Shown here piece after piece: positions 1 to 62,036 of a stretch of DNA of 64,000 bases. A program made the translations under genes and the position numbers. The DNA comes from a virus (taxonomy: Duplodnaviria > Caudoviricetes): the IMG/VR virus record IMGVR_UViG_3300037421_000032, positions 451 through 64,450 of that record; one strand, written 5' to 3'. The first letter of the stretch is position 1; each line of letters opens with the position of its first letter. The notes under the pieces are model-generated. The model did not search any database, was not told where the DNA came from, and saw nothing but the letters and a program-made list of their open reading frames with translations.

Positions 1-343
1 TCCAATGCAAGCGCGGCGACCATTGCTGGGCACCAGCGGCAGCGGCTGTGGGGTTTTGCAGTATAAGACCATCGGTAGAAACTGAACCGATGGGGCCGCC
101 ATTGATCGTGGCGATTGAGCTACCAACGTTGGAGCATTGTGAGAGACCCCCACCAAGTCCAACGGAGAAAGCACCGAGAGTTGTGCAATTTGAACCCCCG
201 CTCGCGGTAACGAACCGGGTATTGGCGCAGAAAAACGTACTATCGCCGGGCGGCCTATCCGGGCAGGTAACATTCTGTGGGCTCGCTGGCGAGGCAAACA
301 GCGAGAGGGCGAGCGCCGCGAGCGCAAGAATCCGCCGCATCAT
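1..343 (-). CDS. 5' part of a large signal-peptide-bearing tail fibre/adhesin-like protein; probably continues into 64000-62036
   Basis: Hand translation MMRRILALAALALSLFASPASPQNVTCPDRPPGDSTFFC...STDGLILQNPTAAAGAQQWSPRLHW. ATGA overlap with the stop of 340..1014; open at the window edge. Confidence 0.75.
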   Translation of the reverse strand, partial: MMRRILALAALALSLFASPASPQNVTCPDRPPGDSTFFCANTRFVTASGGSNCTTLGAFSVGLGGGLSQCSNVGSSIATINGGPIGSVSTDGLILQNPTAAAAGAQQWSPRLHW

Positions 344-1014: not shown

Positions 1015-2820
1015 CTAAAGATTGTCCTCCCAACCGAGCACGGAAGCATTTTCGACGTTGATCGTGGCCGCGCCGCTCCCGCCGACGTAGACATTCGTAC
1101 TTTCCAAAACCATGTCGCAACTCATGCTGACTGATTGAGTTACGGCGCTCGCCGACGCCGTGGCGAAGGCGTTGGAACACGGGGGGAACGGTGACGTTCC
1201 CGCGGCGGTGGCGTAAGTGTTCGATGGTGCTACCGCCGAGAACCGCGTGGTATTGCTCGCCGATGTAATAGAGACTTGCAGCACGACCTTGACCCTACCG
1301 GCGGTCGGCGGCACGAAAGAAGCAACCGCGACCGCTTGCCATGGCGCGCCAAACGAACTCGCCAAGCTCGGCAATGCTACCGCACTTGTCAGATATTGCG
1401 CGCTGCGCCCACGAATGCGAATGCGCCGCTGTGCGTTGTTGGCAGTCGCGTAGATCGCCCCGACCCGCTTCTTGAAACTGTAGCCTGACGGCATGGTTGG
1501 CGCCGTCGCCGAGAGCGAAGCCAGCCCAGCCGTGGTCGTCCCGTTCGAGATGACGAACAGGTTGTACCAGGCATTGCCCATGCTGCCCGTATCAAGGCCG
1601 TTGGCTCCATTAGAGAGCATGGCGATCGTGACGGCGACCGAGGTTGCGCGCACACCGCGGCCACTCGTATCGACCATGACGACTTCATCTGCTGAAATAT
1701 CCCAGGAGTTGTCAGGATTCCCGGCGTTGTTGTTGATAGCGAGATTGACGAAGCCTGAGAGCGCGAGCGGAACTGCGCCCGAGACGCCGCCGCCGATGTA
1801 CCAGCTACCTGAACTTGCGGCGTCCGTCGTGATCCAGGCCCAGGTACCGACCGGGATGGTCGCGTTAGTGCCGGAGGAATTTTGTTGCGCCTTGATCGTA
1901 TCAGCGGCATTTGGAATGATTGTGACCACGCCGCCGCCAACCACATGAACCCAAAAGCCAAAGCCGTTGAATAGCGTATTTGCCCGCGGCAGGCTGAAAT
2001 TGATCGGACCAGTAGCGATATAAGTGGCGTTGTGGTTTGCCCCGGAGATCGACTGATTGATAGAAACCGCAGTTGTTCCTCCGTTGACGCGGGCATTGCC
2101 GGCGCCGTCGTCCTGCAAACCGACGCCGAAGCCCTCGACCGCGAGCGCGCCGAGGCCGAAGGCGGTACGGCCGGCGGCAAGCGACGCGGCGCCGACCACG
2201 GGCGCCATGGCGGACGATATGGTTCCGGTTGCCGGCGTAACGCCCGCGATTACGTTCCCCGAGCCGTCGAATAGAAGGCCGGTATTTGCCCGCTGTGCGG
2301 CCGGCGGCAAGGTCAGGTTGACCGTGGACGGGTCGGATATGGGCGCCGAGATAACCCGGTTCTGCGCCTCGGCGACCTGCTGCAACTGCATCTCGATCGT
2401 GTCGAGTGCCTGTTCGGTTGCGTTCGGGAGATTCGCCCCTTGATTGGCGAAGACCGTCGTTTGCGTGAGCGGCAGGTTGCGATAGATCGTGAGCGTCGTT
2501 CCCGAGGCTATCGGCGTGCCCGAGGGGTTGTAGGTGACGGAGCCGCCGATGCCCCAGAGCTGGCCGGCGGGCGCGGCGTTCAAGGTCAATTGGTACTGAG
2601 TCACCCCAGGCCCGCGCACGAGCGTCGTCTGATTCCCCGAGGCGTCCGTGTAGAGGACGATGATATCGGCGGCGTTGACGCCGATGAATCCGAAGCCGAA
2701 GACGGTTTGGCTTCCGGTCCCGGCAACAATGACCTTGTTGGCCGATGAAGTAATGGTGGCGTTCGCGCAGGGCGCGAACGCGAAGGCAAAAGCGAGGAAG
2801 GCGAAGATCACCCGTCGCAT
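1015..2820 (-). CDS. tail fibre protein (T7 gp17-like N-terminal adaptor) with an N-terminal signal peptide
   Basis: TITSSANKVIVAGTGSQTVFGFGF...TLTIYRNLPLTQTT...EQALDTIEMQLQQ resembles podovirus fibre N-termini. C-terminal NGANGLDTG...WYNLFVI...PTMPSGY module. Preceded by MRRVIFAFLAFAFAFAPCANA. Confidence 0.85.
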   Translation of the reverse strand: MRRVIFAFLAFAFAFAPCANATITSSANKVIVAGTGSQTVFGFGFIGVNAADIIVLYTDASGNQTTLVRGPGVTQYQLTLNAAPAGQLWGIGGSVTYNPSGTPIASGTTLTIYRNLPLTQTTVFANQGANLPNATEQALDTIEMQLQQVAEAQNRVISAPISDPSTVNLTLPPAAQRANTGLLFDGSGNVIAGVTPATGTISSAMAPVVGAASLAAGRTAFGLGALAVEGFGVGLQDDGAGNARVNGGTTAVSINQSISGANHNATYIATGPINFSLPRANTLFNGFGFWVHVVGGGVVTIIPNAADTIKAQQNSSGTNATIPVGTWAWITTDAASSGSWYIGGGVSGAVPLALSGFVNLAINNNAGNPDNSWDISADEVVMVDTSGRGVRATSVAVTIAMLSNGANGLDTGSMGNAWYNLFVISNGTTTAGLASLSATAPTMPSGYSFKKRVGAIYATANNAQRRIRIRGRSAQYLTSAVALPSLASSFGAPWQAVAVASFVPPTAGRVKVVLQVSITSASNTTRFSAVAPSNTYATAAGTSPFPPCSNAFATASASAVTQSVSMSCDMVLESTNVYVGGSGAATINVENASVLGWEDNL

Positions 2821-19676: not shown

Positions 19677-20069
19677 CTACTCCGCGGCTTCTTTGTAGAA
19701 CCGCCCGCGCCGGGCTTCCGCGGCTTCCTCGGCCTCTTCCGCCGGGTCTTGGGTTGCCGGCGACATGCGGCAGATTTGCAGCTCGACCCGCGTGCAAACC
19801 TCCTTGGTGCCGTCCGCCTGCACTTCCTCGCGCTGCGAGGTGCAGGTCACGCGCGCCTCGCAACAGAAATGGATTTCATCGCCCGCCGAGGGAAGATCGC
19901 CGTCGAGCCCGAGCTTTTCGAGCGTGTCATCGTCGAGCGAAATGCACAGCCCGTAGGGATAGACCGGCGTCTTGATTTCAGCGGCCGGCATTGAGGTCGG
20001 CGCCGGCATGTCTTCTTTGATTTCCTCGGGGGTCTTCGCCAAATCCACCATACGGCCGAAGTGTAGCAT
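19677..20069 (-). CDS. capsid staple-like protein (Ralstonia phage GP4 gp10-like)
   Basis: YPYGLCISLDDDTLEKLGL...VELQI motif; GGAGG RBS. Confidence 0.7.
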   Translation of the reverse strand: MLHFGRMVDLAKTPEEIKEDMPAPTSMPAAEIKTPVYPYGLCISLDDDTLEKLGLDGDLPSAGDEIHFCCEARVTCTSQREEVQADGTKEVCTRVELQICRMSPATQDPAEEAEEAAEARRGRFYKEAAE

Positions 20070-21651: not shown

Positions 21652-22956
21652 TTAGAGTTCCGCGCTGGCCTGAATCTTTCCGGTTCCGTTGTTCGAGTAG
21701 AGGAAGGATGCAACGCCGGCCGCCGGCACTGTGCCGGCGGTACAGTTCACAAGCGCGGTCCCTGTGCTCGCAACCGTGCTGGTGACGGTCGTCGCTGCCG
21801 CGAGCGTGGTGCAGTTGCCAAGCGTCGCTTGCGTGGTCGAGGTCGGCGTTGCAAAGCCGTTGGCAAAGGAAAGCGTCGGCGCGGCCCGCATGGTGACGGG
21901 GAATTGAACGAGGCAGTTCGTGTGTGTCGTATCGACTGCCGCGCACGGAGCTACCGGGGCGATCGCCGCGCTTTCGGTAAGCTGGTAGTAATAGCGTTGC
22001 TGCCGCGAGGTTTCATCCTCGATGCCACGCCGGGCAAAAGCCTTGGCGCGGGCGTCATTGGCGGGCAAGACCACTCCGGCGCTTCCGGCCACCGTGGTCA
22101 GGGTACTATTGCGGGTAAGCTGGATGCCCGATAACGCGATGTAATCATTGGTGCCGGCAGTTCCGACCGGCGTGAAACACAACGCCACGGCGATTTCGGC
22201 CGTGCCGGCTGGTATCGGCGCCGCCGCCGTATAGTGCGTGTTGGTCGCGGAGATCGTGACGTTGAGGGTGACGTTTGCCTGCGTCGTCCAACCCGAGCCG
22301 CCGCCGCCGCCGCCATTGAGTCCGAACGCAGCCTTCGCCGCGCCCTCATCCACGACGCTCCCGGTAATGAAATTCACCGTCATCACGGAATTGGCGGCCG
22401 AGAAATTTGCGCCCGCCGTGGCGTGGAAATCGACTTCGGCGGTCAGGCCGGAATAGGCGAAGGATTCCGTCCCCTCGACCACCTGAATCATGCAGACCGG
22501 GAGGACGCCGGTCTGCCCGGAGGTCCGGGCCATCTTGAAAGCGGCCTGGAACGTCTTGGAGGGAGGCAGATCCGCCGCGGTCGTGTCCCGGCTGACCGTC
22601 ATCGCCGTTGCGGTTCCCGACCAATAGGCCCAGCGGTCGGGGCCGCCGTAGGTCAGGGTCGTGGTGACGGATGAGCCGGTCGTCGCCCGCTGGAACAGGT
22701 TTGTGGTGGCATCCCCGCCGATCAGGCTGTTGTCGTAGTTTCCCCCAGGGAGCGATTGGGTATAGCCGGAAAGCGTTGAGCTGGTCGCGTAACAGGAAAC
22801 CGTGCAGGGGAAGTTGAGCGGGATCTGTTCGGTCCCCGCGAGGTTCGTGATCTGTTGCATTCCCTGGCCGATGGCCCGCTGCGCGGGGCCGAAGGCAAAA
22901 ACTGCGGCGATAGCCGCCCCCAGAAGCGCCAATCCGATGCGGAAGGTGGACTTCAT
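21652..22956 (-). CDS. signal-peptide-bearing tail-fibre-like (carbohydrate-binding) protein
   Basis: MKSTFRIGLALLGAAIAAVFAFG leader. NSLIGGD..NLFQR...PDRW and E...QRYY...FPVTMRAAPT are fibre motifs. Confidence 0.75.
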   Translation of the reverse strand: MKSTFRIGLALLGAAIAAVFAFGPAQRAIGQGMQQITNLAGTEQIPLNFPCTVSCYATSSTLSGYTQSLPGGNYDNSLIGGDATTNLFQRATTGSSVTTTLTYGGPDRWAYWSGTATAMTVSRDTTAADLPPSKTFQAAFKMARTSGQTGVLPVCMIQVVEGTESFAYSGLTAEVDFHATAGANFSAANSVMTVNFITGSVVDEGAAKAAFGLNGGGGGGSGWTTQANVTLNVTISATNTHYTAAAPIPAGTAEIAVALCFTPVGTAGTNDYIALSGIQLTRNSTLTTVAGSAGVVLPANDARAKAFARRGIEDETSRQQRYYYQLTESAAIAPVAPCAAVDTTHTNCLVQFPVTMRAAPTLSFANGFATPTSTTQATLGNCTTLAAATTVTSTVASTGTALVNCTAGTVPAAGVASFLYSNNGTGKIQASAEL

Positions 22957-23173
22957 CGTCTGATCCGCCGCCTTGCGGCGCCTCCGGTTCGAGGTTAATT
23001 CCAAGTCACTAGACCTTCGCCTGATTCCCGTCAACGGACGGGTTGAGGTTTCCCCTTGTTTTCGGCGCATCCTACGGAATGCGCCGCAACGCAACGCCAT
23101 CCTCGGCAAGCTGGGCTACGACCTCCCGCAGCTTGGCGTTCTCGGCTTCGAGTTCGGCGGGCGTCATGTGGCC

Positions 23174-23863
23174 TCAGAAAGTGAATATGGTGATGGCATT
23201 ATTGGTCCATGCCGTGCTGCCAGCAATCCCCACCGCAAGCCAGTATTGCGTGTTAGGCGTTCCGGTAAAGGTTCCCGCGATCGAGGTCAAAGTGAAACCA
23301 GTGCCGCAAGCCGTTGCGTGCATGACGGGGGTGAGTATCGTCGCGCCTCCGGGAATCGGATTGAGGGAAAACATTGGCTCGCTGCCAATGGTGCCCGGAG
23401 AGCCGTTGACACTGTACGTTCCCGCCAATCCTGGGGAACCCGTCAACTGCCCAGTGATCGTCACGGGAGCAAACCCCGCGCCGTTCAAAATTTGCCCTGT
23501 TGCAATCGACCAGGGTGGCGCTGGCGGCACGAAACTTCCTGCGGTCAGGACGTTGCTGGCAATTGACCCCATAAAATTCGCACCAGTAATAGAGGAAGCC
23601 CCAGCGCCGATATAAAGCTGCGCCGACATCTGGGTTGTGGGGCTGCTGCCACAAAGAACCTGCCCGGTTGCAAGGGCGTAAACCACTCCATAGGGGCCGG
23701 TCGTGAAAGTGCAAGACAGCAGCACGCCGAGAATTGTGCCGGGCGTGCCGTTCACCGTGGTATCGAAACCATCGCAGGTTATTGCCTGCGGATTGCCGGC
23801 GCGCGCCGCTGTCGGGCATAAAACGGCGATGGCGACAGAGAGTGCAAGAAGCAGTCGCCTCAT
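23174..23863 (-). CDS. secreted beta-rich protein with 4 Cys in the mature part; paralog of 23860..24639
   Basis: MRRLLLALSVAIAVLCPTAARA|GNP leader. Confidence 0.7.
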   Translation of the reverse strand: MRRLLLALSVAIAVLCPTAARAGNPQAITCDGFDTTVNGTPGTILGVLLSCTFTTGPYGVVYALATGQVLCGSSPTTQMSAQLYIGAGASSITGANFMGSIASNVLTAGSFVPPAPPWSIATGQILNGAGFAPVTITGQLTGSPGLAGTYSVNGSPGTIGSEPMFSLNPIPGGATILTPVMHATACGTGFTLTSIAGTFTGTPNTQYWLAVGIAGSTAWTNNAITIFTF

Positions 23864-24639
23864 TGCACGATCCCGTATGATGGGGGAAGTTTTGGCGGGG
23901 CGACTATAGAGATTTGCCCGTTGCTCCAACTAGCCAGTTGGGGATCCCCGGTCACTCGTTCTGCCGTAAGCGTGAGGCCGACCCATATAATCTCGTTCGG
24001 AGGCTGCGATGCTATTGGCATGATCCCAGCAATCGTTACCGTTTCCGTTGATCCGTTTTGACACTTCAAATCCTGTAGTATGCGTGCGGATATAGGGCCG
24101 CCACCTGGGAAAGCCCCCTGGTAGGGCACCTCAGTAAGCGCCCACATCACTTCGCTCCCAACCGAAACCGTATTATCGGACACCGTGTAATGGCCGGTCC
24201 CGCCAGTAGGACCGTCCGTTTGCCCTGTGACCGACAGCGTGGAGCCGTTGAACCCGGTCGGGATGCCCGCTCCTGATTGGGCATCGTAAAGTATCTGCCC
24301 TGTCCCGATCTTGAATGCCGGTGGTGTTATCATGCTTGGCACGGTCAGGACGCCGCCGGAAATCGAGCCGTTGAACTGAGCCCCGAGGGCAGCAGGCGGC
24401 CCATTGGCGCTGGCAATCAAAATCAACGAGGCTGTGTTGGTGGCGGCACAACTGACCGTTCCGGTCGCTGACACGTAAATGGTGCCGTAGAATCCGTTGT
24501 TTAGCGTACAATTGGAAAGCACCACGTTGCCGCTGAATGAAAATGAGGTCGTGTCGTAGGTCGGGCAGGTTACGGCGGACTGCGCCCAGGCGGGTGCACA
24601 CCAGAGCAGCAACGCGAGTGCGACCAGCCAGCGGCGCAT
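23860..24639 (-). CDS. secreted beta-rich protein with 4 Cys in the mature part
   Basis: MRRWLVALALLLWCAPAWA|QS leader. Confidence 0.75.
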   Translation of the reverse strand: MRRWLVALALLLWCAPAWAQSAVTCPTYDTTSFSFSGNVVLSNCTLNNGFYGTIYVSATGTVSCAATNTASLILIASANGPPAALGAQFNGSISGGVLTVPSMITPPAFKIGTGQILYDAQSGAGIPTGFNGSTLSVTGQTDGPTGGTGHYTVSDNTVSVGSEVMWALTEVPYQGAFPGGGPISARILQDLKCQNGSTETVTIAGIMPIASQPPNEIIWVGLTLTAERVTGDPQLASWSNGQISIVAPPKLPPSYGIVQ

Positions 24640-24641
24640 TC

Positions 24642-26537
24642 TCAGTCCCCGATTATGGAGCTGTCGAGCAAGATCATCCCCGGAGAAATCAAAGACACAT
24701 ACCCAACTTGCCCGGCGGTCATTCCAGAACTGGTGGCGGCAATTTGAATGCTGTTAAGCCCGTACTTGTTGACGCTAAGTGCTGTAGCTGCAAACGTAGC
24801 CGCAGCGGTCGTGAACGTATAATCCGCGACGTTTTCAAAATAGACATTGGGCGGCGGACAAAGCGGCGCAGTTTTTGCAGCGGTATCCCACACATTGCAG
24901 CGCAAGGTTACAGGCAGCGGCCACGTCGACAGAAAGTCAGTCGTGGTGTCGGAAAAACCCATCGTGGTTTCGATTGCGCCGTTGTTGCCGGGGTTGATGG
25001 CGGTTTCCAATCCCGTTCCGATCAATTGAGCAAACCGCGCATTGCGCAGCATGTCGGACACGGCGTCCGGGATTTCCAGCGGCCCTGGGTACAGTTGAAT
25101 GCACGGAGGCGCAGCACCGGCGCAGGTCGCTCCCGGCGTCTGCTTCAATTCAAATCCGTCGATGGTGAAATATTGACCGTTCGTCATGGCTCCGGTGTGA
25201 AACTCGACTTCCATGTCACCATGAATGCCGGTCGGAACCCACGTATAGGCATAGTTGCATTGGCTCGGCGACGCGACGTTCGTGCAGGCAGTCAGGGTGA
25301 CCGGCGCTATATCCGTTGTCGCGTTCGTCCAGGCGTTAAGGCAAACTCCGACCGTCAAGGGACAGGCATTTTTGCTGCTAAAGCTCGGTGCCGAAGTAAA
25401 ATTAGTTGAGAAATTTATATTCATTTGAAACGTAATGGCCTGGATCAGCATGTTAGACGAGACGCAAACTGAGGTCGAACCCGCATAGAGCGCACAGTTG
25501 ATCCGTGAGGCATCAACATAGTCTATCGGGAAGCGAATAATCAAATCGGTCAGAGTGCCGCCGGCCGTACATTGAATTGCCAGCGGGGCAAAGTTGCCCC
25601 CTGGGCCGTTAGTTCCGACCCCGGTACAACTGACGCTGCTAGTGCCTGCGGTCCCAACCGGAATGGCGTAGATGCCCTCTGCCGACCAGCCGCCCGCCGA
25701 TCGCATCGTCTCGCTGGCAACCAATTGCGAAGTATCGACTTGATAAGTACCGGCGCCTCCGGCCGAGCCGGTAAGTTGCCGGACGATCTTAGTCCCTCGT
25801 GCGACGGTGCTGAATACGATGACATCACCGCTTCCCACGCCCGGCCCGACAAGCGTGCATTGACTGGCGTTGGTGTTAAACCCCACACCGCCGTTCAGGG
25901 ATGGGCACGCGCTAGTATTGCCGGTCAGCGTGACCGTGTTGCTCGTAGTAGACGCTACGGTGTAATTTCCGGCGATGGCGCGAGGGTTGGTCAGGTCCGT
26001 AGCATACATCCCGGCTGCGATGCCTGTTGTGGACGCGAAATGAAGCACATTGTTGCCAACAGCGGTCGTTCCATTGGTCACGCAGTTAGTTTGAGACGGA
26101 CAATTAACGGTGTCCGTCACCCGCTGGTCTTGTTGGATCGTCCCCGTCACGCTGCTCGCAGTCAGCGTTGTGCCGGCCGATCCGCTACCGTTGTCAATCG
26201 TTGCGGTGAAGCTCGCGATGCCGTTGACATAAGGGTTGGAGTTAGGCACGTCTTTCGTGAGCCATTTGTAATGTGCCCAACTCGTCATTGAACCGTTGCG
26301 CAGCGCGTTCGTCGTGCCGGTCGTTTGCAACAGGACGTTCTGGTTGACGTATGCGCCCTGGTCGGGATTGAAAAATGGAATGTTGACTGAAAGACCGCTG
26401 CCGAGCGTGAAGTTGCCCGCGAAGCCGTTTATAAAGTTGACGGCGGCCTGCGCCAGTTGCGGCGACCAGCCTGCGGCCATGACTTGCCCGACCAAGGCGC
26501 CAAGAAACAGAATGCCGAGTAGTCGAAGTTTTGTCAT
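24642..26537 (-). CDS. large secreted Cys-rich fibre/adhesin-like protein
   Basis: MTKLRLLGILFLGALVGQVMA leader; NALRNGSMTSW fibre-type domain start; many Cys. Confidence 0.7.
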   Translation of the reverse strand: MTKLRLLGILFLGALVGQVMAAGWSPQLAQAAVNFINGFAGNFTLGSGLSVNIPFFNPDQGAYVNQNVLLQTTGTTNALRNGSMTSWAHYKWLTKDVPNSNPYVNGIASFTATIDNGSGSAGTTLTASSVTGTIQQDQRVTDTVNCPSQTNCVTNGTTAVGNNVLHFASTTGIAAGMYATDLTNPRAIAGNYTVASTTSNTVTLTGNTSACPSLNGGVGFNTNASQCTLVGPGVGSGDVIVFSTVARGTKIVRQLTGSAGGAGTYQVDTSQLVASETMRSAGGWSAEGIYAIPVGTAGTSSVSCTGVGTNGPGGNFAPLAIQCTAGGTLTDLIIRFPIDYVDASRINCALYAGSTSVCVSSNMLIQAITFQMNINFSTNFTSAPSFSSKNACPLTVGVCLNAWTNATTDIAPVTLTACTNVASPSQCNYAYTWVPTGIHGDMEVEFHTGAMTNGQYFTIDGFELKQTPGATCAGAAPPCIQLYPGPLEIPDAVSDMLRNARFAQLIGTGLETAINPGNNGAIETTMGFSDTTTDFLSTWPLPVTLRCNVWDTAAKTAPLCPPPNVYFENVADYTFTTAAATFAATALSVNKYGLNSIQIAATSSGMTAGQVGYVSLISPGMILLDSSIIGD

Positions 26538-26541
26538 CTAA

Positions 26542-27621
26542 CTATCCAGTGGGTGTGACGACGATTATGCCATTTGCTCCTGACCCGCCCGCATTGGTAG
26601 CCCCGGTGAACCCACCGCCACCGCCGCCTGCTCCATAGTTGCCGCCGTTCCCACCTGGGGCGTCAGTGACAGAGGTCGGACCGGCGCCGCCGCCACCGCC
26701 ACCGCCGGAACCGTGGGAGGCATCAAAATCAACCCCGGCACCACCAGCGCACGCTGGCCCCATATTGCTGACACCAGAGTTAGCAGCACCACCGCCGCCC
26801 GATCCATGTGATCCAGCAGTGCAAACTGAAACGTTTGACACACCACCCAACCCGCCTGCCGTACTATCTTGAGCCGTGCCGCCGTTACCGCCACCATTCG
26901 CAACAGAATCCGCTCCGTTACCACCGCCGCCATTGCCCCCACCGCCGCCGCCGCCGTTTTGAACACCCGCACCGGAAGCCCCGCCATGCCCGCCAGCTCC
27001 GTTCGGACCGGCCGCACCGCCGCCGCCGCCCGCTCCATTTGCTACTTGCGTCTGCGCGCCGCCGGCACCACCAGCATTCTTGGTAGAGCCAACCGCGCCC
27101 GTGGTAGACCCGCCCGCCGCCGTCGATGTTGATCCCACGCCCCCAGCGCCGCCGTTCGATCCGACGACAACTGCCGTGCCTCCGATTGTCGCGCAGTTGG
27201 TTGTGGCGTTGCACAGCCAAGTATTGCCGCCCGCAACACCGGGGCTCCCGTTCGCGCCGCCGGTTCCGATGTTGATCCCGATAGTGCCGGACAAAGAAAG
27301 TCCGGTGGCTTTGGAATATCCGCCCCCGCCGCCTCCAGCACCGATTACGGTTCCGGTCGCATTCGCGCCGCCACCACCCCCGGCGATGGTTTCGGCAGTA
27401 AAGACCGAGCAGTTTGGAAAATCGACCGTGAGGTTGATCGTAGTCGTGGCAGTGTTAGTGTAAAATGCTGCTGTGCCCGCGGAAGCACAACTGCCCCCAC
27501 CACTCGGCGCCGTGATGCTGCAAAACCCCGCCGCGCAGCCGTTGAACTGCGCCCATGAGGCGAGCGGCAGGCCAACGCAAATGCCGGCAAGCGCCGCGAG
27601 AACAACAACCCACCGTTTCAT
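26542..27621 (-). CDS. secreted glycine-rich tail-fibre-like protein
   Basis: MKRWVVVLAALAGICVGLPLASWA|QF leader; GGGGGG...GANGIIVV glycine-rich domain. Confidence 0.75.
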   Translation of the reverse strand: MKRWVVVLAALAGICVGLPLASWAQFNGCAAGFCSITAPSGGGSCASAGTAAFYTNTATTTINLTVDFPNCSVFTAETIAGGGGGANATGTVIGAGGGGGGYSKATGLSLSGTIGINIGTGGANGSPGVAGGNTWLCNATTNCATIGGTAVVVGSNGGAGGVGSTSTAAGGSTTGAVGSTKNAGGAGGAQTQVANGAGGGGGAAGPNGAGGHGGASGAGVQNGGGGGGGNGGGGNGADSVANGGGNGGTAQDSTAGGLGGVSNVSVCTAGSHGSGGGGAANSGVSNMGPACAGGAGVDFDASHGSGGGGGGGAGPTSVTDAPGGNGGNYGAGGGGGGFTGATNAGGSGANGIIVVTPTG

Positions 27622-28091
27622 GTGAGGTCATTCCCGATCAGATAGAGATCACACGTCGCGGCCGTGCCCTGCCCGGTCGTCAGCGAGAGATACACCGTGT
27701 TGACCGTATAGCGTGTAGTTGCGATGTTCGCCGCCAAGGTCAGCCCGAGCACGATCGTCGCCCCGGTCAGCGCGGTATAAATCTGCGCCGCTGCAACGAG
27801 TGCCGTGCCGCCCTTGCTGACCGCCGGATAGACACCGCCCGCTGCGAGCGTCAGCGAAGCCGAGCAATTGGTGACGATGATCGAAGTCGGCACCCATGCG
27901 GTCACACCGGCCGGAATGGTGCAGGCTTGATCCGTGGTGACATTAAAGTTGGCGGCGCGGATCGAGCATAGGACGCGCGTGGCGCCTGCCGCCGTGTTAT
28001 TGATCGTGACAGCGCCGCCGCTGCCAAACCCGGCTATAGCCTGCGAACATGCCAGCCAAGCCGCACAAAAGAATGCAAGAACTCGGCGCAT
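27618..28091 (-). CDS. secreted decoration-like protein
   Basis: MRRVLAFFCAAWLACSQAIA|GF leader; 4 Cys in the mature part. Confidence 0.7.
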   Translation of the reverse strand: MRRVLAFFCAAWLACSQAIAGFGSGGAVTINNTAAGATRVLCSIRAANFNVTTDQACTIPAGVTAWVPTSIIVTNCSASLTLAAGGVYPAVSKGGTALVAAAQIYTALTGATIVLGLTLAANIATTRYTVNTVYLSLTTGQGTAATCDLYLIGNDLT

Positions 28092-28095
28092 GGCA

Positions 28096-28953
28096 TCACC
28101 AATATGTGCAGGAGAACTTGTGCCCGGTCGTCGCGGCAATGACCGACAGGGCCGTATTCATGCCGAAGCCGAGGGGCGTCGTGAAACTCGATAGGCCGGC
28201 AAATGTCGTCGCTGTCGGAGCGGCCAGAGGGTAGGACGCGGCGGTTGAAGCAGCGGCCGTGGTGGTGAAAGAAATCCATAACGGCTCACCGGAGCCCGCC
28301 GACGTGTCAATGTTGGCGATGGTGAATCCATGGATCGTCGCCGTTGCCGCGATGGCATTCTGCGCCGTGCCGCCTGATGTGATCGTACTGGAACAATTGG
28401 TCGGGGTGACATTGACATTGCCGGTGACGGTTCCGATCGCGGCAGTGCCGGCCGCTAGACCGACCGTTCCCCCGCTTGAGCCCATAGCACCCGTTGGCAG
28501 CGGCAACGATGCCGCGCTTATCGGAATCACCGTTCCAGAGGCAATACCTTGGACCGTTACCACCTCGGCCGATGCCGTTCCGGCCGTGCCCACACCCGCG
28601 CCAGCAACGGTCGAACCCGTGCCCGAGTTTTTCGAGACGGCGACGGGCGCCGCAGATGCGGCGACGGCCTGCCCGTTGGGATTAAGCGTTCCCGATGCAA
28701 GGTTGACTGTTTGGTGTCCGCTACTATCCACCGCCGCGCATTGCGACGGCATCGTCGGATCGCATAGAAGTAGTTGCATGTAATGCACGGAGGCGACGAC
28801 GATAGACCCGAACGTCGTTCCGCTTCCTTGGGTCAACGTATAGTTGGCAAACGCCCATATTCCGCCGACCATCACGACAAGCAGAGTGCCGCGGAATATC
28901 GTTCCGAAACACCATAGCAGGGTGCGCAGCAGGAACATCGCCGTGCGTTTCAT
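28096..28953 (-). CDS. membrane-leader-bearing decoration-like protein
   Basis: Hydrophobic N-terminus ending AFA|NY; Thr/Ala/Gly-rich body; paired Cys. Confidence 0.7.
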   Translation of the reverse strand: MKRTAMFLLRTLLWCFGTIFRGTLLVVMVGGIWAFANYTLTQGSGTTFGSIVVASVHYMQLLLCDPTMPSQCAAVDSSGHQTVNLASGTLNPNGQAVAASAAPVAVSKNSGTGSTVAGAGVGTAGTASAEVVTVQGIASGTVIPISAASLPLPTGAMGSSGGTVGLAAGTAAIGTVTGNVNVTPTNCSSTITSGGTAQNAIAATATIHGFTIANIDTSAGSGEPLWISFTTTAAASTAASYPLAAPTATTFAGLSSFTTPLGFGMNTALSVIAATTGHKFSCTYW

Positions 28954-29123
28954 TGTCCTAATCCTGTGACGCAGCCGAGGGAGAGATCGAGAACACCGTT
29001 ACAGGTCGAAGGTGTGGATACCCCATGTCCCGATTGATTAGCCGGCGACATGATCCACACTTGCGCGTCCGCTCCCGCTGCCAGGGCGAGGGCCAAGAGC
29101 AGGATGAAGACGGTCACGCGCAT
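28950..29123 (-). CDS. small secreted peptide (57 aa, 2 Cys)
   Basis: Hand translation MRVTVFILLLALALAAGADA|QVWIMSPANQSGHGVSTPSTCNGVLDLSLGCVTGLGQ; stop overlaps the next ATG. Confidence 0.7.
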   Translation of the reverse strand: MRVTVFILLLALALAAGADAQVWIMSPANQSGHGVSTPSTCNGVLDLSLGCVTGLGQ

Positions 29124-29126
29124 GGG

Positions 29127-29591
29127 CTAGAATTGCGTGTAGTAGACGATCGCCTGGACGGCAACGCCGGCATTCGTCAGGATGCACAGGTCATTCGAGA
29201 CTGGAACCGGGGGAATCCCGGTATAGACCGGGAGATGGTCGACCTCGGCGATCTGCGCCGTGAGTGCAAAGGGCGGCGTGACCGCCGCCTGTCCCGTCCC
29301 GCAAGTTCCGCCCGTGCCGTAGACGAAACTGACACTGACCGTCCCGCCGGGCATGATGTTCCAGCCGCAGACGTAGATCTGCTTGGTCGCCGTGCCGGTT
29401 ACGAGCTTCGTCGCGCCGTTGGTCGAGGCATTGTACTGCGCCGACTGATTGCAGCCGAACATCTGGTTTGGCGACACGCCCTGGGCGTGAGCAGGAAACA
29501 GCCCTACCCACCACAAGAACCAAACGACGATGACAGCCGTTATCCAGTCGCCAGCATTGGGCTTGTAAGTCAGCCAAATCGGGCGCCGCAT
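29127..29591 (-). CDS. secreted Cys-rich decoration-like protein
   Basis: MRRPIW...VIVVWFLWWVGLFPAHA|QG leader; 4 Cys. Confidence 0.7.
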   Translation of the reverse strand: MRRPIWLTYKPNAGDWITAVIVVWFLWWVGLFPAHAQGVSPNQMFGCNQSAQYNASTNGATKLVTGTATKQIYVCGWNIMPGGTVSVSFVYGTGGTCGTGQAAVTPPFALTAQIAEVDHLPVYTGIPPVPVSNDLCILTNAGVAVQAIVYYTQF

Positions 29592-30325: not shown

Positions 30326-30886
30326 TTACGACGCAACCTTGTAGTTCGAGCCGTACTGGTTGAGCGTCGATTGGGCGTCTTCGTCTCCCAGAGTAACGTC
30401 GGCAGTAAGCGTGCCGGCGGTCGCGCTCGACCCGGTGATGGCGTAGTGCAGGTCGATGAACCGCGGCAAGCCCGCCCCGGTCTTTCGCATCGGCCAGTCG
30501 AATGAGGCGATGCGCGTGTTCGCGGTCAGAAGCGCGAGCGCGATCGTGTCGGTCTGCATGTAGATGACGAAGGCCAGATCCGAACGATTGCCCGAGGCGT
30601 GCGCGGTCGCGTTTTCCGGCGCGCCGCGGAACTGCACTTGGATCGTGGTCACGGTCAGGAACGCCGTGCCCGTATTGACCTGCACGCGCGGCGTGCCCGG
30701 ACCCTTGCCGATGCCAAGGTCTTCCCCGAAGAACGTCTGGTTCACGGAGAAGATATTGCTGGGCGACGGCGTGAAGGTCGTCGTGCCCATCGAACCGTTG
30801 AGCTGGTCGTAGAAGTTCGTCGAGTCCGCCGCGGCGGTCAAAGCCTGGGCGTTCGAGAACTGGAGGTTTGCATCAAGCATACCCAT
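30326..30886 (-). CDS. capsid cement protein (Bbp16-like)
   Basis: MLDANLQFSNAQALTA...DLGIG...RFIDLHY; directly follows the capsid gene. Confidence 0.8.
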   Translation of the reverse strand: MGMLDANLQFSNAQALTAAADSTNFYDQLNGSMGTTTFTPSPSNIFSVNQTFFGEDLGIGKGPGTPRVQVNTGTAFLTVTTIQVQFRGAPENATAHASGNRSDLAFVIYMQTDTIALALLTANTRIASFDWPMRKTGAGLPRFIDLHYAITGSSATAGTLTADVTLGDEDAQSTLNQYGSNYKVAS

Positions 30887-30928: not shown

Positions 30929-31960
30929 TCAGGTAATTCGACTCTCAGTGTCCAGAATTTGGTCTGTGACCCCGATGGGTATGTTGCGGAAGTTCACGAT
31001 CGGGCGCCCGGCGTAGTCCTCCGGCCGGAGCAGCACGTTCTTGTCGCGGATGGCCTGAATGTCGAGGTATTCGCGCCAGGTACGGTCGCCGTACCAGTTG
31101 AGCCGCACCGGAGGCGCGACGCGATCGGGAGCGTCGGTCTTGGTGATGCCCGATACCATGCGGCCGGCGGTCGGCAGGCGAACGACGGCCTTCGACATGA
31201 TCGCGAACAGGTCGGGCGGCGTTGCACCCGCGAGGCCCGCCGTGGTCGTGTCGATGTTGCACATGCGAACGACATAGCGCCAGTCCTCGATGCACAACCC
31301 GGCGTTCCACGAGAAATACGACGTGTATGCCTCATAGCGCCGGCTGGAGCTATCGTAGGCCGGAACCGTGTCGCCCTTGTTCTCGAACGTCAGGCCGGCT
31401 TTCGTTCCCTTGGGGAAGATGCCGTAGGCGGTCTGATCGCCCCAGCCGATGAGCCAAGCGGAAGTGTTCGACGATCCGGTGCCGCCGCAGTCGAAGACGT
31501 TGACGCCGTTCTGCGCCGCCGCGATGGCCGCGAAATAGGTGGCAAAGCCCGACATCTGTTCCGGCGTCGTCCACGAGTTGCCGTAGATGTAGAAGCCGGA
31601 CATCTGTTGCGACATGCCCTCCATGTGGGCAACGTCTTCCTTTTCCCGATTTGCGGCGGTGTTACCGCCCAAATCGGCCAGCTTCTTGTCGATCTGCGAA
31701 TAGGCGTCGAGCATCATCATGCCGAACGTGAGCTGCGCCGCAGACGACTTGGTGTAGGCAACGCCCTGGTTGAACCGGCGGGCGGTGCCCTTCGGCAAGG
31801 CGGTGCGCAAAGTAACCACATGCCCCGTCGTCAGGTTGCCCTCGACCCACGGGATATGATCGATGATTTCGTTGCACTGGGAGAGCAATTCCGCCATGTC
31901 GGCGATCTTGCCCGAAGGATCCATGCGCCGACCGATATCGGCGAGGGTCAAGGAAGCCAT
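30929..31960 (-). CDS. major capsid protein (BPP-1 Bbp17-like)
   Basis: LTLAD...ELLSQCNEII..IPW.EGN..TGH...RT.LP, DWRYVVR.CNID, F..IPI...DQILDTE. Confidence 0.92.
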   Translation of the reverse strand: MASLTLADIGRRMDPSGKIADMAELLSQCNEIIDHIPWVEGNLTTGHVVTLRTALPKGTARRFNQGVAYTKSSAAQLTFGMMMLDAYSQIDKKLADLGGNTAANREKEDVAHMEGMSQQMSGFYIYGNSWTTPEQMSGFATYFAAIAAAQNGVNVFDCGGTGSSNTSAWLIGWGDQTAYGIFPKGTKAGLTFENKGDTVPAYDSSSRRYEAYTSYFSWNAGLCIEDWRYVVRMCNIDTTTAGLAGATPPDLFAIMSKAVVRLPTAGRMVSGITKTDAPDRVAPPVRLNWYGDRTWREYLDIQAIRDKNVLLRPEDYAGRPIVNFRNIPIGVTDQILDTESRIT

Positions 31961-60552: not shown

Positions 60553-61241
60553 GTGCTTTTCCTTTCGAGGACAGCATAAGCGGCGGCGATGTCGGCGTGA
60601 TCGGCGCCGAGCGAATGGCCCGTGAAGATGACCTCATCGACGTCCGCGATCAAGGGTTTGATCGCCGCCCAGGCGGCGTCCATCCCGATCACGAAGCCTT
60701 CCCACATGCGCCCGAGCCGGTCGTGCATGATGAGGCGCGTGAGCAAAGCCGGAACGTCGAAGCCGGTCAGATCGCGCAGCCAATCGAATAGGTCGTCGGA
60801 TCCACGGAAGACGACGAAGGAGCGCCGGCCCTGGCGGCGGATAGCCCACACAACGCCGACCGTCGAACTGCTCGCATCCCACGCTTCGGGAGGCGTGCCC
60901 GGCTTGGCGTAGATCGCGTTGCAGAGTCGCGCGGCCTCGACATGCGCGGGATCGATTCCGGCCGCCTGCGTGCCGGCAACGTAAAGAGGGGCATGATGCC
61001 AGCGGAAGATTCCGAGCCCGTCGTTATCCGGCGGATCCGCGCGGACGAACGCAAGCGGCGTCGGATGCACGAAGTCAAGCCCGAGCGCCGGGACCGCGAG
61101 TGGAAAGTCCGTCACCCGATCGTGCCCGAGCGGACCTGACCGATTACAGTAGGCGACGCTCTCATCAAGCCCTTTGAGGATATCGGCAAATTGCTGCATT
61201 CCTGGCAGGGCTTCCCCGAAGACGATGCGACGCAGGATCAT
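60549..61241 (-). CDS. class-3 lipase-like alpha/beta hydrolase, circularly permuted
   Basis: VVFRGS..DW..D and FTGHSLG lie near the C-terminus; FG..PG..FA, DRVTDFP, FVHP and WHH..Y lie near the N-terminus. Confidence 0.8.
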   Translation of the reverse strand: MILRRIVFGEALPGMQQFADILKGLDESVAYCNRSGPLGHDRVTDFPLAVPALGLDFVHPTPLAFVRADPPDNDGLGIFRWHHAPLYVAGTQAAGIDPAHVEAARLCNAIYAKPGTPPEAWDASSSTVGVVWAIRRQGRRSFVVFRGSDDLFDWLRDLTGFDVPALLTRLIMHDRLGRMWEGFVIGMDAAWAAIKPLIADVDEVIFTGHSLGADHADIAAAYAVLERKST

Positions 61242-61789
61242 GCGGTCGGCACCATCTTGAGCGCCGCGGCCTCGATTTCTTCCGAGCGGCGAATCCAATC
61301 TTTGCCGAAGCGGCCGAATGTGGAGATCATCCGATAGACCGCCTCGCGTCGGGCTGTAAACGCCTTGATTTCGTCGGCGTCGACAATTTTCGCCGCCGCC
61401 GCTTCGGTCAGCGGCCCCCATTGCCCATCGGCTGGAATGCCGAGCGTATACTGCATGATCTTGATCGCCTCGAATGACCCCTGGTTGACGGCGTCGTCGA
61501 AGAACACAAGGTCGAAGCCCGGCGGGAGCTTAGGACAATGAGGCTCCCAATAGCTCGTGCGATAGATCGTGAAGCCTTCATCCTGCGTCATCTGACGCAC
61601 ATCACGCACAGGCAGTCCCTGTGCTTTACGCCAATGGTCATATTCTCTCTGAATGATGCCGTTGAAGGTCTTACCCCCTGGGTCGCCGGGATCGTTGCTG
61701 AAATTTCTCGGGTTGCTCCAGTCTTGCGGAACGGGAGCTTCTTGTCGAAGCGTGAAGGGAAGGCAGATTAGGAAGCGGTCCTCGGCCAT
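61238..61789 (-). CDS. endolysin, glycosyl hydrolase family 108
   Basis: E...FSNDPGDPGGKTFNGI...IYRTSYW...FDDAVNQG...DG.WGP.T...FGKDW.RR. Confidence 0.9.
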   Translation of the reverse strand: MAEDRFLICLPFTLRQEAPVPQDWSNPRNFSNDPGDPGGKTFNGIIQREYDHWRKAQGLPVRDVRQMTQDEGFTIYRTSYWEPHCPKLPPGFDLVFFDDAVNQGSFEAIKIMQYTLGIPADGQWGPLTEAAAAKIVDADEIKAFTARREAVYRMISTFGRFGKDWIRRSEEIEAAALKMVPTA

Positions 61790-61799
61790 GCGCTACTCC

Positions 61800-62036
61800 C
61801 TATTTCTCGATCTTCGGCAGTTGCGAGGGCTGTACGTTGGACTCAAGTTCCTTGATCCGAGCCTGTAACTGCTCAATCTGCTTGTTCGCCCCGATCAATT
61901 GCTGTGTGCACTGTAACCCGGCGTTTATTTCCTGCATGAGTTTGGAGCCCAGCGCCTGCTCGGCAGGGGACTGCTGTGGTTGCTGCGCCAAGGCAGGGGT
62001 GATCGATAATAGAAATACCAATGGTGAGTATTTCAT
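61800..62036 (-). CDS. small secreted coiled-coil protein (possible fibre chaperone or spanin part)
   Basis: MKYSPLVFLLSITPALA|QQ; IEQLQARIKELES; TGATG-coupled to the fibre gene. Confidence 0.65.
   Translation of the reverse strand: MKYSPLVFLLSITPALAQQPQQSPAEQALGSKLMQEINAGLQCTQQLIGANKQIEQLQARIKELESNVQPSQLPKIEK

What the first reader, a model, noticed from the sequence alone, without database searches (positions are those of the whole stretch)
21652..29591. Block of nine exported, Cys-paired fibre/decoration-like genes inside the structural operon
Seen: between the capsid/cement genes and the tail tubes lie nine mostly translationally coupled genes: 21652-22956, 23174-23863, 23860-24639, 24642-26537, 26542-27621, 27618-28091, 28096-28953, 28950-29123 and 29127-29591. 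Each starts with an MR/MK/MTK hydrophobic leader, mostly ending in AxA. The mature parts are beta-rich and often carry 2 or 4 Cys. Several have phage fibre motifs (N.LI.GD..FQR..DRW / QRYY..FPVTMRAAPT; glycine-rich domain). The flanking core proteins (capsid, cement, tubes, portal) have no leader. With 1-343, 1015-2820 and 61800-62036 this makes about 12 exported late proteins. Inference: a periplasmic, Dsb-dependent virion maturation system in which disulfide-stabilised head/tail appendages are stockpiled in the periplasm and loaded at lysis. Alternatively, they form a phage-built cell-surface structure.
Basis: partly seen in the sequence, partly recalled or inferred. Interest (0 to 1): 0.88.

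Follow-up and report, generated by a model that had tools for sequence, protein, structure and literature searches.

The report
Phage fibre genes carrying export signals
An uncultured short-tailed soil phage puts ordinary bacterial secretion signals and paired cysteines on nine neighbouring fibre-like late proteins and on its tailspike, so its host-recognition parts probably mature in the periplasm, away from where the particle is built.

Summary
The window is nearly all of a circular 64.3-kb epsilon15/BPP-1-like podophage genome. Between the cement gene and the staple and tail-tube genes lie nine tightly packed minus-strand genes (21652-29591). All nine start with a Sec-type leader. Their mature parts have few charged residues and an even number of cysteines (4, 2, 4, 4, 8, 16, 4, 4, 8).

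- The 434-aa protein B9 is a core protein of a large uncultured phage clade. Its model has the two-domain fold of phage tail-fibre tips.
- The other eight genes are a variable cassette.
- The phage's only epsilon15-type tailspike (1015-2820) and an 876-aa fibre that spans the contig junction also carry leaders.
- Among 120 tailspike-anchor homologues, 64 start directly at the anchor. Another 53 put a hydrophobic leader, nearly always ending in AxA, exactly in front of the same first residues.
- Leader-bearing proteins are enriched for even cysteine counts and co-varying cysteine pairs.

Export and disulfide bonding are well supported by sequence statistics. No trained signal-peptide predictor was available and there is no experiment. 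Whether the exported proteins then join the particle is inference.

The scan has noted the same phenomenon in other phage genomes. My paper searches found no description of it in print.

The parts
29127..29591 (-). B1, 154 aa. Its leader has a long n-region. The mature part has 4 Cys.
   Evidence: Homologues in L005, L019 and L032. The L005 homologue has a canonical leader.
28950..29123 (-). B2, 57 aa. It has a canonical leader. The mature peptide is 37 aa with 2 Cys.
   Evidence: No homologue in the 46 loci.
28096..28953 (-). B3, 285 aa. Its leader has two hydrophobic stretches. The mature part has 4 Cys and is rich in G/S/T/A.
   Evidence: It is 71-72% identical over part of its length to ORFs in L007, L012 and L013. 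The L007 ORF has a canonical leader.
27618..28091 (-). B4, 157 aa. It has a leader, and the mature part has 4 Cys.
   Evidence: Homologues in L009, L012, L013 and L015.
26542..27621 (-). B5, 359 aa. It has a leader. The body is glycine-rich (119 Gly), and the mature part has 8 Cys.
   Evidence: No Pfam, PHROG or NCBIfam hit.
24642..26537 (-). B6, 631 aa. It has a leader. The mature part has 16 Cys and a fibre-tip-like jelly-roll.
   Evidence: 18 homologues. 11 invariant Cys columns in 14 sequences. Leader in 13 of 13 long members. AF2 model pLDDT 64.6. BFVD hits are the same fibre proteins as for B9, but with TM about 0.2.
23860..24639 (-). B7, 259 aa. It has a leader and 4 mature Cys. It is a paralogue of B8.
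   Evidence: BLASTP against B8: 33% identity, E 1e-22. 35 representative relatives. 4 invariant Cys columns.
23174..23863 (-). B8, 229 aa. It has a leader and 4 mature Cys. It is a paralogue of B7.
21652..22956 (-). B9, 434 aa. It has a leader and 8 mature Cys. It is a core protein of the clade with a tail-fibre-tip fold: a CenC-like carbohydrate-binding jelly-roll plus a beta-sandwich.
   Evidence: 525 homologues. AF2 model pLDDT 89.4. PDB hits are carbohydrate-binding modules and the CBA120 TSP4 tailspike. BFVD tail fibres at E 3.1e-28, TM 0.71. Cys pairs co-vary.
1015..2820 (-). Tailspike orthologue, 601 aa. A 21-aa leader is followed at once by the epsilon15 gp20-type tail-anchor domain. 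The mature part has 2 Cys.
   Evidence: PHROG tail families align from residue 22. 57 phage records match, and in the 40 listed the match starts at residue 20-34. It is the only copy in the genome. Homologue survey.
1..343 (-). 5' part of an 876-aa leader-bearing fibre gene that runs across the circular junction. Contig bases 128-450 of the gene lie outside the window.
62036..63873 (-). 3' part of the same 876-aa gene. The mature protein has 6 Cys and internal repeats.
30326..30886 (-). Context: Bbp16-like cement protein, no leader.
   Evidence: Pfam PF21190, E 3.4e-5, just under the curated cut-off.
19677..20069 (-). Context: epsilon15 gp10-like staple protein, no leader.
   Evidence: Pfam PF21628, E 1.8e-11.
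61238..61789 (-). Context: GH108 endolysin without a leader, so lysis needs a holin.
   Evidence: Pfam PF05838, E 4.9e-18. Holin family hit at 60226-60552, E 9.8e-6, just under the curated cut-off.

Best explanation
The nine genes encode late proteins that the host Sec system exports, signal peptidase I trims, and disulfide bonds stabilise in the periplasm. They are fibre-like or lectin-like host-recognition proteins. B9 is a conserved core member with the fold of a phage tail-fibre tip. B1 to B8 are an exchangeable cassette.

The leader-bearing tailspike and the 876-aa fibre belong to the same set, and together they form the phage's appendage set. The head, the tail tubes and the internal proteins are made without leaders in the cytoplasm.

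The appendages would therefore meet the particle only after the holin opens the inner membrane. The leaderless GH108 endolysin needs the same event.

- Shown by sequence: the leaders, their conservation, the cysteine pattern, the folds, and the anchor domain.
- Inferred: actual export, cleavage, oxidation, and above all attachment to the particle.

My odds are about 0.8 for export with disulfides and about 0.35-0.4 for the whole chain including attachment. The confidence given here is for the whole chain.
For: **Leaders in the block**
- 9 of 9 block proteins have a Sec-type leader. Capsid, cement, portal, scaffold, tubes and three internal proteins do not.
- Leaders are kept in relatives while their sequence drifts: B9 family 118 of 120 (the other two are start miscalls), B6 family 13 of 13, B7/B8 family 28 of 29.

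**Cysteines**
- Mature counts are even in 9 of 9 block proteins, and also in the tailspike (2) and the 876-aa fibre (6).
- In 85 B9 homologues, 83 have an even count. Pairs 51/55 and 338/348 are always both present or both absent (13/72 and 82/3).
- 11 Cys columns are invariant in the B6 family and 4 in the B7/B8 family.
- Across the related loci, de-duplicated and without B9 (two of the four MAG loci may still hold a B9 homologue counted as non-B9), leader-bearing ORFs split 66 even, 17 odd, 5 none. Leaderless ORFs split 149, 174, 117. Fisher p = 3e-8.

**Folds**
- The B9 model (pLDDT 89.4) matches phage tail-fibre proteins over about 400 columns and carbohydrate-binding modules in the PDB.

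**The tailspike**
- PHROG tail families and 57 phage tailspike or fibre records align only from about residue 20-34.
- Of the 120 best anchor homologues, 64 begin M-T-[VI]-x at the anchor. Another 53 have a hydrophobic leader, nearly always ending A-x-A, directly before the same residues.
- Even to odd Cys counts are 43:13 with an extension and 28:29 without.
- The anchor is as conserved in both groups (about 55-68% identity), and the genome holds only this one copy.

**Lysis**
- The endolysin has no leader, and a holin-family gene is present.
Against: - No trained predictor (SignalP) was available and there is no experiment. The leader calls rest on my own heuristic and on reading by eye.
- The leaders of B1 and B3 are atypical, and the c-region of B9 holds an Arg.
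- None of B1-B9 has a recognisable virion-anchor domain.
- Eleven different appendage proteins is a lot for a 64-kb podophage.
- B2-B8 have lower GC3. B2, B5, B6, B7 and B8 have no homologue in the 46 related loci, as morons would.
- No tailed phage is known to add parts from the periplasm, and I found none in print.
- Released particles and periplasmic proteins would dilute quickly at lysis.
- Later checks of similar findings in this scan put the attachment claim near 10 in 100.
- Disulfide geometry could not be checked, because the tools give no model coordinates.
Confidence: 0.4

Rival explanations
1. The block proteins are exported but are not virion parts. They would be secreted or envelope-bound lectins made late. 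Possible roles are to mask or bind surface polysaccharide receptors (so that progeny are not lost on debris, or rival phages are shut out), to modify the envelope, or to build a structure on the infected cell.
For: - B1-B9 have no virion-anchor domain.
- B2-B8 have lower GC3 and vary between close relatives, like morons.
- B9 has a carbohydrate-binding fold.
- Cells are known to export fibre-like proteins: the 21 Bdellovibrio MAT proteins each carry a signal peptide (passages read).
- Matrishin et al. 2023 proposed outer-membrane modification for signal-bearing Porphyromonas phage genes (passages read).
Against: - The genes sit inside the structural operon, tightly packed, with no promoter signal above chance (5 sites found against 3.2 expected).
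- B9 is about as conserved as the capsid protein across the clade.
- The tailspike orthologue keeps its tail-anchor domain under the same conservation as leaderless orthologues, and no leaderless copy exists. At least that exported protein should therefore bind the tail.
Confidence: 0.3
2. The leaders do not lead to export of the functional pool. Fibres would fold and attach in the cytoplasm as in other tailed phages. The hydrophobic N-terminus would then serve something else, such as a membrane tether, an assembly aid or a pro-peptide. Alternatively only a side fraction is exported.
For: - Cytoplasmic assembly is the rule for all tailed phages studied (established knowledge).
- No experiment or trained predictor supports export here.
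- The leaders of B1 and B3 are atypical.
- 13 of 56 extended tailspike homologues (three of them without a hydrophobic leader) have odd Cys counts.
Against: - The n/h/c architecture with small -3/-1 residues is kept in three families while the sequence drifts.
- The predicted cut restores exactly the N-terminus of the leaderless orthologues.
- Even, co-varying and invariant cysteines mark the leader-bearing proteins only. This fits an oxidising compartment.
Confidence: 0.2
3. The leaders are gene-calling artefacts, and the true starts lie downstream.
For: None found. The 434-aa ORF can be extended upstream to 23109, which shows that the start choice is not unique.
Against: - The starts sit at 4-base overlaps or 2-5-base gaps behind the previous stop.
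- The hydrophobic N-termini are kept in hundreds of homologues.
- In the tailspike there is no Met between the leader and the anchor.
Confidence: 0.02

Closest known systems
Tailspikes and tail fibres of epsilon15/phiV10-type (Uetakevirus-like) and BPP-1-type (Rauchvirus) podophages, e.g. Caulobacter phage RapA gp038
   Same: The capsid is about 40% identical, with Bbp16-like cement and a gp10-like staple. Residues 22-160 of the tailspike at 1015-2820 align with their N-terminal tail-anchor domains.
   Different: Their anchor starts at residue 1-2 with no leader. RapA has no gene block between the cement and tail-tube genes.
Distal modules of phage tail fibres with a CenC-like carbohydrate-binding jelly-roll plus beta-sandwich (BFVD models of BcepNazgul, Xanthomonas FoX4, Ralstonia phiAp1 and cyanophage fibres)
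   Same: The B9 model matches them at E 3e-28 to 1e-13, TM 0.5-0.71, over about 400 columns. B6 hits the same set weakly.
   Different: Many of them are the ends of longer fibres. B9 is a stand-alone 434-aa protein with a leader and only about 40 residues before the module. I could not inspect the N-termini of those BFVD proteins.
Bdellovibrio bacteriovorus MAT (mosaic adhesive trimer) fibre proteins (PMC10769870, passages read)
   Same: They are a family of many phage-fibre-like proteins. Each has a signal peptide directly followed by a conserved domain, and they are used for recognising cell surfaces.
   Different: They are encoded by a cell and displayed on it, not by a phage. I found no sequence relation. 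Cysteine content was not compared.
Exported proteins encoded among phage late or tail genes: lambda Lom and Bor, T5 Llp, Cor (recalled from memory, not from a call), and the signal-bearing genes of unknown function in Porphyromonas phages (PMC10367356)
   Same: They are phage genes with Sec or lipoprotein signals lying in or beside structural modules.
   Different: Those are single small outer-membrane proteins or lipoproteins, not virion-type folds. Here there are nine in a row, plus the tailspike itself.
Filamentous phage coat proteins g3p and g8p (PMC8310372, only the abstract start seen)
   Same: They are virion proteins made with signal sequences and assembled outside the cytoplasm.
   Different: Inoviruses assemble by extrusion through the envelope. 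This phage has a portal, terminase, capsid and lysis cassette like any tailed phage.

Membership tests
Sec / signal peptidase I signal peptide | Positively charged n-region | tested here: met
   9 of 9 proteins start with M plus K/R within the first 5 residues.
Sec / signal peptidase I signal peptide | Uncharged hydrophobic h-region of about 7-15 residues, shorter than a membrane helix | tested here: met
   9 of 9 have a best 12-residue hydropathy of 2.4-3.1. B1 (about 17 residues) and B3 (two stretches) are atypical.
Sec / signal peptidase I signal peptide | Small residues at -3 and -1 (AxA-type cut site) | tested here: met
   Sites read by eye and by my own scoring. In the tailspike family the boundary is A-x-A in nearly all of the 53 leaders. 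No trained predictor was run.
Sec / signal peptidase I signal peptide | Actual translocation and cleavage | not testable with these tools
   Needs reporter fusions or N-terminal proteomics.
Periplasmic disulfide-bonded proteins (DsbA substrates) | Cysteines present in pairs and conserved as pairs | tested here: met
   Even counts in 9 of 9 block proteins and in 83 of 85 B9 homologues, with pairs that co-vary perfectly. Clade-wide 66 even to 17 odd, against 149 to 174 in leaderless ORFs.
Periplasmic disulfide-bonded proteins (DsbA substrates) | Paired cysteines adjacent in the structure, and oxidation dependent on Dsb | not testable with these tools
   The tools return no model coordinates, and there is no experiment.
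Phage tail fibre / receptor-binding protein | Fold of a known fibre or spike module | tested here: met
   B9. B6: weak. Not tested for B1-B5, B7 and B8. The Atlas model of B7 is poor.
Phage tail fibre / receptor-binding protein | N-terminal domain that anchors the protein to the tail or to another fibre | tested here: not met
   For B1-B9 there is no similarity to the tailspike anchor or to each other, except B7 with B8, and no family hits. The feature is met for the tailspike at 1015-2820.
Phage tail fibre / receptor-binding protein | Presence in the virion; trimer formation | not testable with these tools
   No cultured relative with a proteome is at hand. The one complex job gave no verdict (see Tried and rejected).
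Epsilon15/BPP-1-like podophage (context) | Related capsid, cement, staple and tail tube proteins | tested here: met
   Capsid about 40% identical to phiV10 and RapA types. Bbp16-like and gp10-like proteins. Tail protein phrog_394 and internal virion protein phrog_418.
Chaperone-usher or other pilus system | Periplasmic chaperone and outer-membrane usher next to the subunits | tested here: not met
   No Pfam or NCBIfam hit in any block protein.

The most novel reading that the evidence does not exclude
A tailed phage that assembles in two compartments. Head, tail tubes and ejection proteins are built in the cytoplasm. Every host-recognition appendage (the tailspike, an 876-aa fibre, the conserved B9 protein and a cassette of eight more) is exported by Sec, trimmed and disulfide-bonded in the periplasm. 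The appendages dock on the particle only in the interval between holin triggering and rupture of the outer membrane. Classical in-vitro addition of P22 tailspikes to spikeless heads (recalled from memory) shows that such late docking is chemically feasible.
Probability: 0.33. Interest if true: 0.9.

Novelty: new variant of a known kind. Interest (0 to 1): 0.7.

Why it matters
All studied tailed phages are thought to finish their particles in the cytoplasm. If a widespread soil phage clade exports its receptor-binding parts, several things would follow:
- Tail-fibre folding could use periplasmic disulfide chemistry.
- Lysis timing and particle maturation would be coupled.
- Host Sec, LepB and Dsb would become phage dependency factors.
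- Expressing such fibres for host-range engineering would require periplasmic production.

The natural series of leader-bearing and leaderless tailspike anchors (53 against 64 among the 120 best homologues) gives a clean comparative handle. The prophage-borne homologue in a cultured Pseudolabrys genome points to a possible test system.

Even the modest reading matters for phage-host surface biology. In that reading the proteins are secreted phage lectins made late in large amounts.

Tried and rejected
**Family and sequence searches**
- Pfam, PHROGs and NCBIfam on the nine proteins gave nothing usable. The only hits were two weak sub-threshold ones: SPW at E 0.023 and phrog_24531 at E 0.094.
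- tblastn of B9 and B6 against 50,697 phage records found no match.
- ESM Atlas for B7 gave no feature hit. The Atlas's own model is poor (pTM 0.34) and all structure rows have TM under 0.5.

**Structure**
- The B6 model is only moderate (pLDDT 64.6). Its fold matches have low TM, so I use them only as a hint.
- Complex prediction on three copies of mature B7 with my alignment A4 returned 'no answer' (score 0.00). This is no evidence either way.

**Host and lysogeny**
- B9-like matches were found in 5 of 401 genomes sampled from the order of one MAG that holds a relative. Only that MAG's own match is close. These phages were therefore not found as common prophages in those genomes.
- Four MAG contigs of 5-68 kb labelled Hyphomicrobiales, Bradyrhizobium (two) and Salinisphaerales hold B9 homologues. 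The host assignment rests on binning only.

**Readings considered and dropped**
- Tat signals. Five of ten leaders start MRR, but the leaders are short and strongly hydrophobic, and the B9 family mostly has MK.
- Lipoprotein signals. I read the leaders by eye and saw no lipobox in front of a Cys.
- A pilus system. There is no chaperone or usher.

**Promoter and terminator scan**
- The counts were at chance level.

**Literature**
- Searches found no paper describing Sec signals on tail fibres or tailspikes of tailed phages.
- Search 47 and the passages read (Bradyrhizobium phages) did not bear on the question.
- One search did not retrieve the Cellulophaga virion-proteome paper named in earlier notes of this scan. 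I could not check the claim that leader-bearing proteins were detected in those particles.
Virion proteome tables in such supplements could bear on the attachment claim.

**Recalled, not from any call**
- P22 in-vitro tailspike addition.
- Micron-scale holin lesions.
- The examples Lom, Bor, Llp and Cor.
- The resemblance of the 283-aa protein to Omp25/31.

Full report
**What the window is**

The window is bases 451-64450 of a single 64,450-base contig. The first 127 bases of the contig repeat at its end, so the genome is a circular assembly of about 64.3 kb.
- The capsid protein (30929-31960, minus strand) is about 40% identical to those of phiV10/epsilon15-type coliphages and of Caulobacter Rauchvirus phages. 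tblastn found 103 records, all under 60% identity.
- A Bbp16-like cement protein, an epsilon15 gp10-like staple, a tail protein (phrog_394) and an internal virion protein (phrog_418) complete the picture of an epsilon15/BPP-1-like podophage.
- The late genes all run on the minus strand in this order: portal, scaffold, capsid, cement, a 207-aa protein, the nine-gene block, small head-region genes with the staple, two tail tube proteins, an exonuclease, four internal proteins, the tailspike, a 224-aa protein, an 876-aa fibre, and the lysis genes.

**The observation**

All nine ORFs are present as described.
- Seven of the eight junctions within the block are 4-base overlaps or gaps of 2-4 bases. 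The exception is a 217-base gap before the last gene. A 5-base gap separates the block from the 207-aa gene upstream.
- Each protein starts with M plus K/R and an uncharged hydrophobic stretch. The same measure is far lower in capsid, cement, portal, scaffold, tubes and internal proteins. The leaderless 224-aa protein at 340-1014 comes closest, at 2.1.
- With the cut sites I read from the sequences, the mature parts hold 4, 2, 4, 4, 8, 16, 4, 4 and 8 cysteines.
- The mature parts hold only 1.5-9.3% charged residues. Fifteen leaderless proteins of the same phage have 11.5-38% charged residues and 0-8 cysteines of either parity.
- A crude leader test over 95 crude ORF calls of the window flags 16. 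Some are block genes, the tailspike, a 283-aa protein and a 78-aa protein by the endolysin. The rest are lysis-region membrane proteins and some doubtful or spurious ORFs.
- Nine leader-bearing genes in a row is therefore not chance.
- One correction matters.

**What the proteins are**

None of the nine has a usable Pfam, PHROG or NCBIfam match.

B9 (21652-22956):
- It belongs to a large family. 525 proteins reached E <= 0.001 among 8,000 scored candidates, and the 120 listed are 50-77% identical. Many lie on contigs of 58-68 kb.
- In 46 related viral contigs it lies between the capsid/cement genes and the tail tubes. It is about as conserved as the capsid protein.
- An AlphaFold model from 85 sequences is confident (pLDDT 89.4, pTM 0.84). 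It shows a detached N-terminal helix, a jelly-roll and a second beta-sandwich.
- In the PDB it matches carbohydrate-binding modules and the CBA120 TSP4 tailspike. 27 matches have E <= 0.001.
- In BFVD it matches predicted phage tail-fibre proteins over about 400 columns. 228 matches have E <= 0.001, and the best has E 3.1e-28 and TM 0.71. They include named tail fibres of Burkholderia, Xanthomonas, Ralstonia, Agrobacterium and cyanobacterial phages.

B6:
- It has 18 relatives and a moderate model. The model hits the same fibre set at E down to 1.7e-13, but with TM about 0.2.

B7 and B8:
- They are paralogues (33% identity). Their small family has 35 representative clusters.

The rest of the block:
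- B1, B3 and B4 have homologues in 3, 3 and 4 of the 46 loci, in another order relative to B9.
- B2, B5, B6, B7 and B8 have none there.
- Genes 2-8 have lower GC3 than the core genes.
- So B9 is core, and the other eight are an exchangeable cassette.

**Are the leaders real signals?**

The leaders are conserved as a feature while their sequence drifts. This is how signal peptides evolve.
- My heuristic finds them in 118 of 120 B9 relatives. The other two are a start called too far upstream and a truncated start.
- It finds them in 13 of 13 long B6 relatives and in 28 of 29 B7/B8 relatives. The remaining one lacks only the charge (alignments).
- In the alignments, conserved mature sequence begins right behind a small-x-small site, often with Gln at +1.

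**Do the cysteines look like disulfides?**
- In 85 B9 relatives, 83 have an even count. Columns 155 and 260 are invariant.
- Columns 51/55 are both present in 13 and both absent in 72. Columns 338/348 are both present in 82 and both absent in 3.
- The B6 family has 11 invariant cysteine columns, several spaced 7-13 residues apart. The B7/B8 family has four.
- I also surveyed the related loci with crude plus-strand ORF calls of at least 100 aa. These were de-duplicated and B9 homologues were set aside, although up to two from the later MAG loci may remain.
  - 88 leader-bearing ORFs split 66 even, 17 odd, 5 none.
  - 440 leaderless ORFs split 149 even, 174 odd, 117 none.
  - Fisher p = 3e-8 (first pass).
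- This is the signature of proteins that fold in an oxidising compartment.

**The tailspike is the key witness**

The 601-aa protein at 1015-2820 has a 21-residue leader.
- PHROG tail-protein and tailspike families align with it from residue 22, 27, 28 or 34 to their own positions 2-14.
- 57 phage records match its first 160 residues, among them epsilon15-type tailspikes, the BcepC6B fibre and Pelagibacter fibres. In the 40 listed, every match starts at residue 20-34.
- The Rauchvirus phage RapA has the same domain at the very start of its tail protein, without a leader.
- The genome has no second copy of this anchor.

I then surveyed the 120 best database homologues of the anchor.
- 64 start M-T-[VI]-x directly at the anchor and 56 are extended.
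- 53 of the 56 have a strongly hydrophobic leader whose end is nearly always A-x-A, directly before the same T-[VI]-x residues.
- So the predicted cut would recreate the N-terminus that the leaderless orthologues have.
- Anchor identity to the query is similar in both groups (about 55-68%).
- The extended ones have more cysteines (mean 5.7 against 3.1), mostly in even numbers (43 even, 13 odd, 0 none). The leaderless ones have 28 even, 29 odd, 7 none.
- A protein that keeps a tail anchor and yet acquires an export signal and paired cysteines is hard to explain unless it is exported and still binds the tail.

**How it most likely works**

Export, trimming and oxidation of the nine proteins, the tailspike and the 876-aa fibre are inferred from the sequence evidence above. 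I give them about 0.8.
- The head and tail core have no leaders.
- The endolysin is a leaderless GH108 enzyme, and a holin-family gene lies nearby. Lysis therefore starts with holin lesions in the inner membrane.
- The simplest chain is that exported appendages and cytoplasmic particles meet after that event and before the outer membrane gives way.
- P22 tailspikes bind spikeless heads in vitro (recalled from memory), so late docking is feasible in principle.
- This last step is pure inference. I give the whole chain about 0.35-0.4.
- For the eight cassette proteins, which lack any recognisable anchor, a role as secreted lectins or envelope factors is a serious rival (0.3).
- A cytoplasmic fate with a non-export role for the leader stays possible (0.2).

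**Comparison with what is known**
- The phage core is an ordinary member of the epsilon15/BPP-1 kind.
- The B9 fold is an ordinary tail-fibre tip.
- What differs from every described tailed phage I could find is the leader in front of fibre and tailspike proteins.
- The nearest cellular analogue is the Bdellovibrio MAT family: fibre-like proteins, each with a signal peptide.
- The nearest phage report is Matrishin et al. 2023. They noted signal peptides on Porphyromonas phage genes of unknown function and proposed effects on the host outer membrane.
- Three full-text searches found nothing on Sec signals on tail fibres or tailspikes.

**Earlier notes of this scan**
- The scan has met the same pattern before on other DNA. 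307 notes hold the search words, including two relatives of this clade.
- One note on this same genome concerns the tailspike.
- Later checks of two such findings left the observation standing but priced the attachment claim near 10 in 100. I weigh that as a caution.
- My somewhat higher figure rests on the leader/no-leader series of the tailspike anchor and the cysteine statistics measured here.
- A lead from those notes could not be checked. It says that leader-bearing proteins were detected by mass spectrometry in particles of cultured Cellulophaga phages. My search did not retrieve the paper.

**Verdict**
- I class this as a new variant of a known kind: phage receptor-binding proteins with export signals.
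- Interest is 0.7.

Noticed in passing
window 1-343 and 62036-64000: The contig's first 127 bases repeat at its end, so the genome is circular. Two ORFs that look separate are in fact one 876-aa leader-bearing fibre gene with internal repeats.
   Followed up: yes
window 58065-58916 (-): A 283-aa protein with a canonical signal peptide and no Pfam, PHROG or NCBIfam hit. From memory its start resembles Omp25/31-type outer-membrane proteins of Hyphomicrobiales. If so, it would be a host-like envelope gene carried by the phage.
   Followed up: partly
window 60226-62036 (-): The lysis region holds four genes: a 78-aa leader-bearing coiled-coil protein, a leaderless GH108 endolysin (61238-61789), a class-3 lipase-like protein (60549-61241) and a Pam3 gp28-family holin (60226-60552). 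A lipase between endolysin and holin is unusual.
   Followed up: partly
loci L003, L004, L006, L022, L029, L031, L033, L034 and others: Many relatives encode a 440-1120-aa leader-bearing protein behind the staple gene. Its predicted mature end begins with a conserved Q-[ST]-x-[LI]-LQGG motif right after the cut site. It may be a docking peptide. There is no such gene in the window.
   Followed up: no
window block proteins B1, B2, B5, B7, B9 and 61800-62036: The predicted mature N-terminus is Gln in five of the nine block proteins and in the 78-aa protein. The same holds in many relatives. It could become pyroglutamate.
   Followed up: no
window 14853-15467 (-): An RNase T/DnaQ-type exonuclease gene sits between the tail tube B gene and the internal virion protein genes.
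   Followed up: no
window 22957-23173: A 217-base gap is the only untight junction of the block. In the closest relatives B9 follows the 207-aa gene directly, so this gap may mark the seam where the eight-gene cassette was inserted.
   Followed up: no
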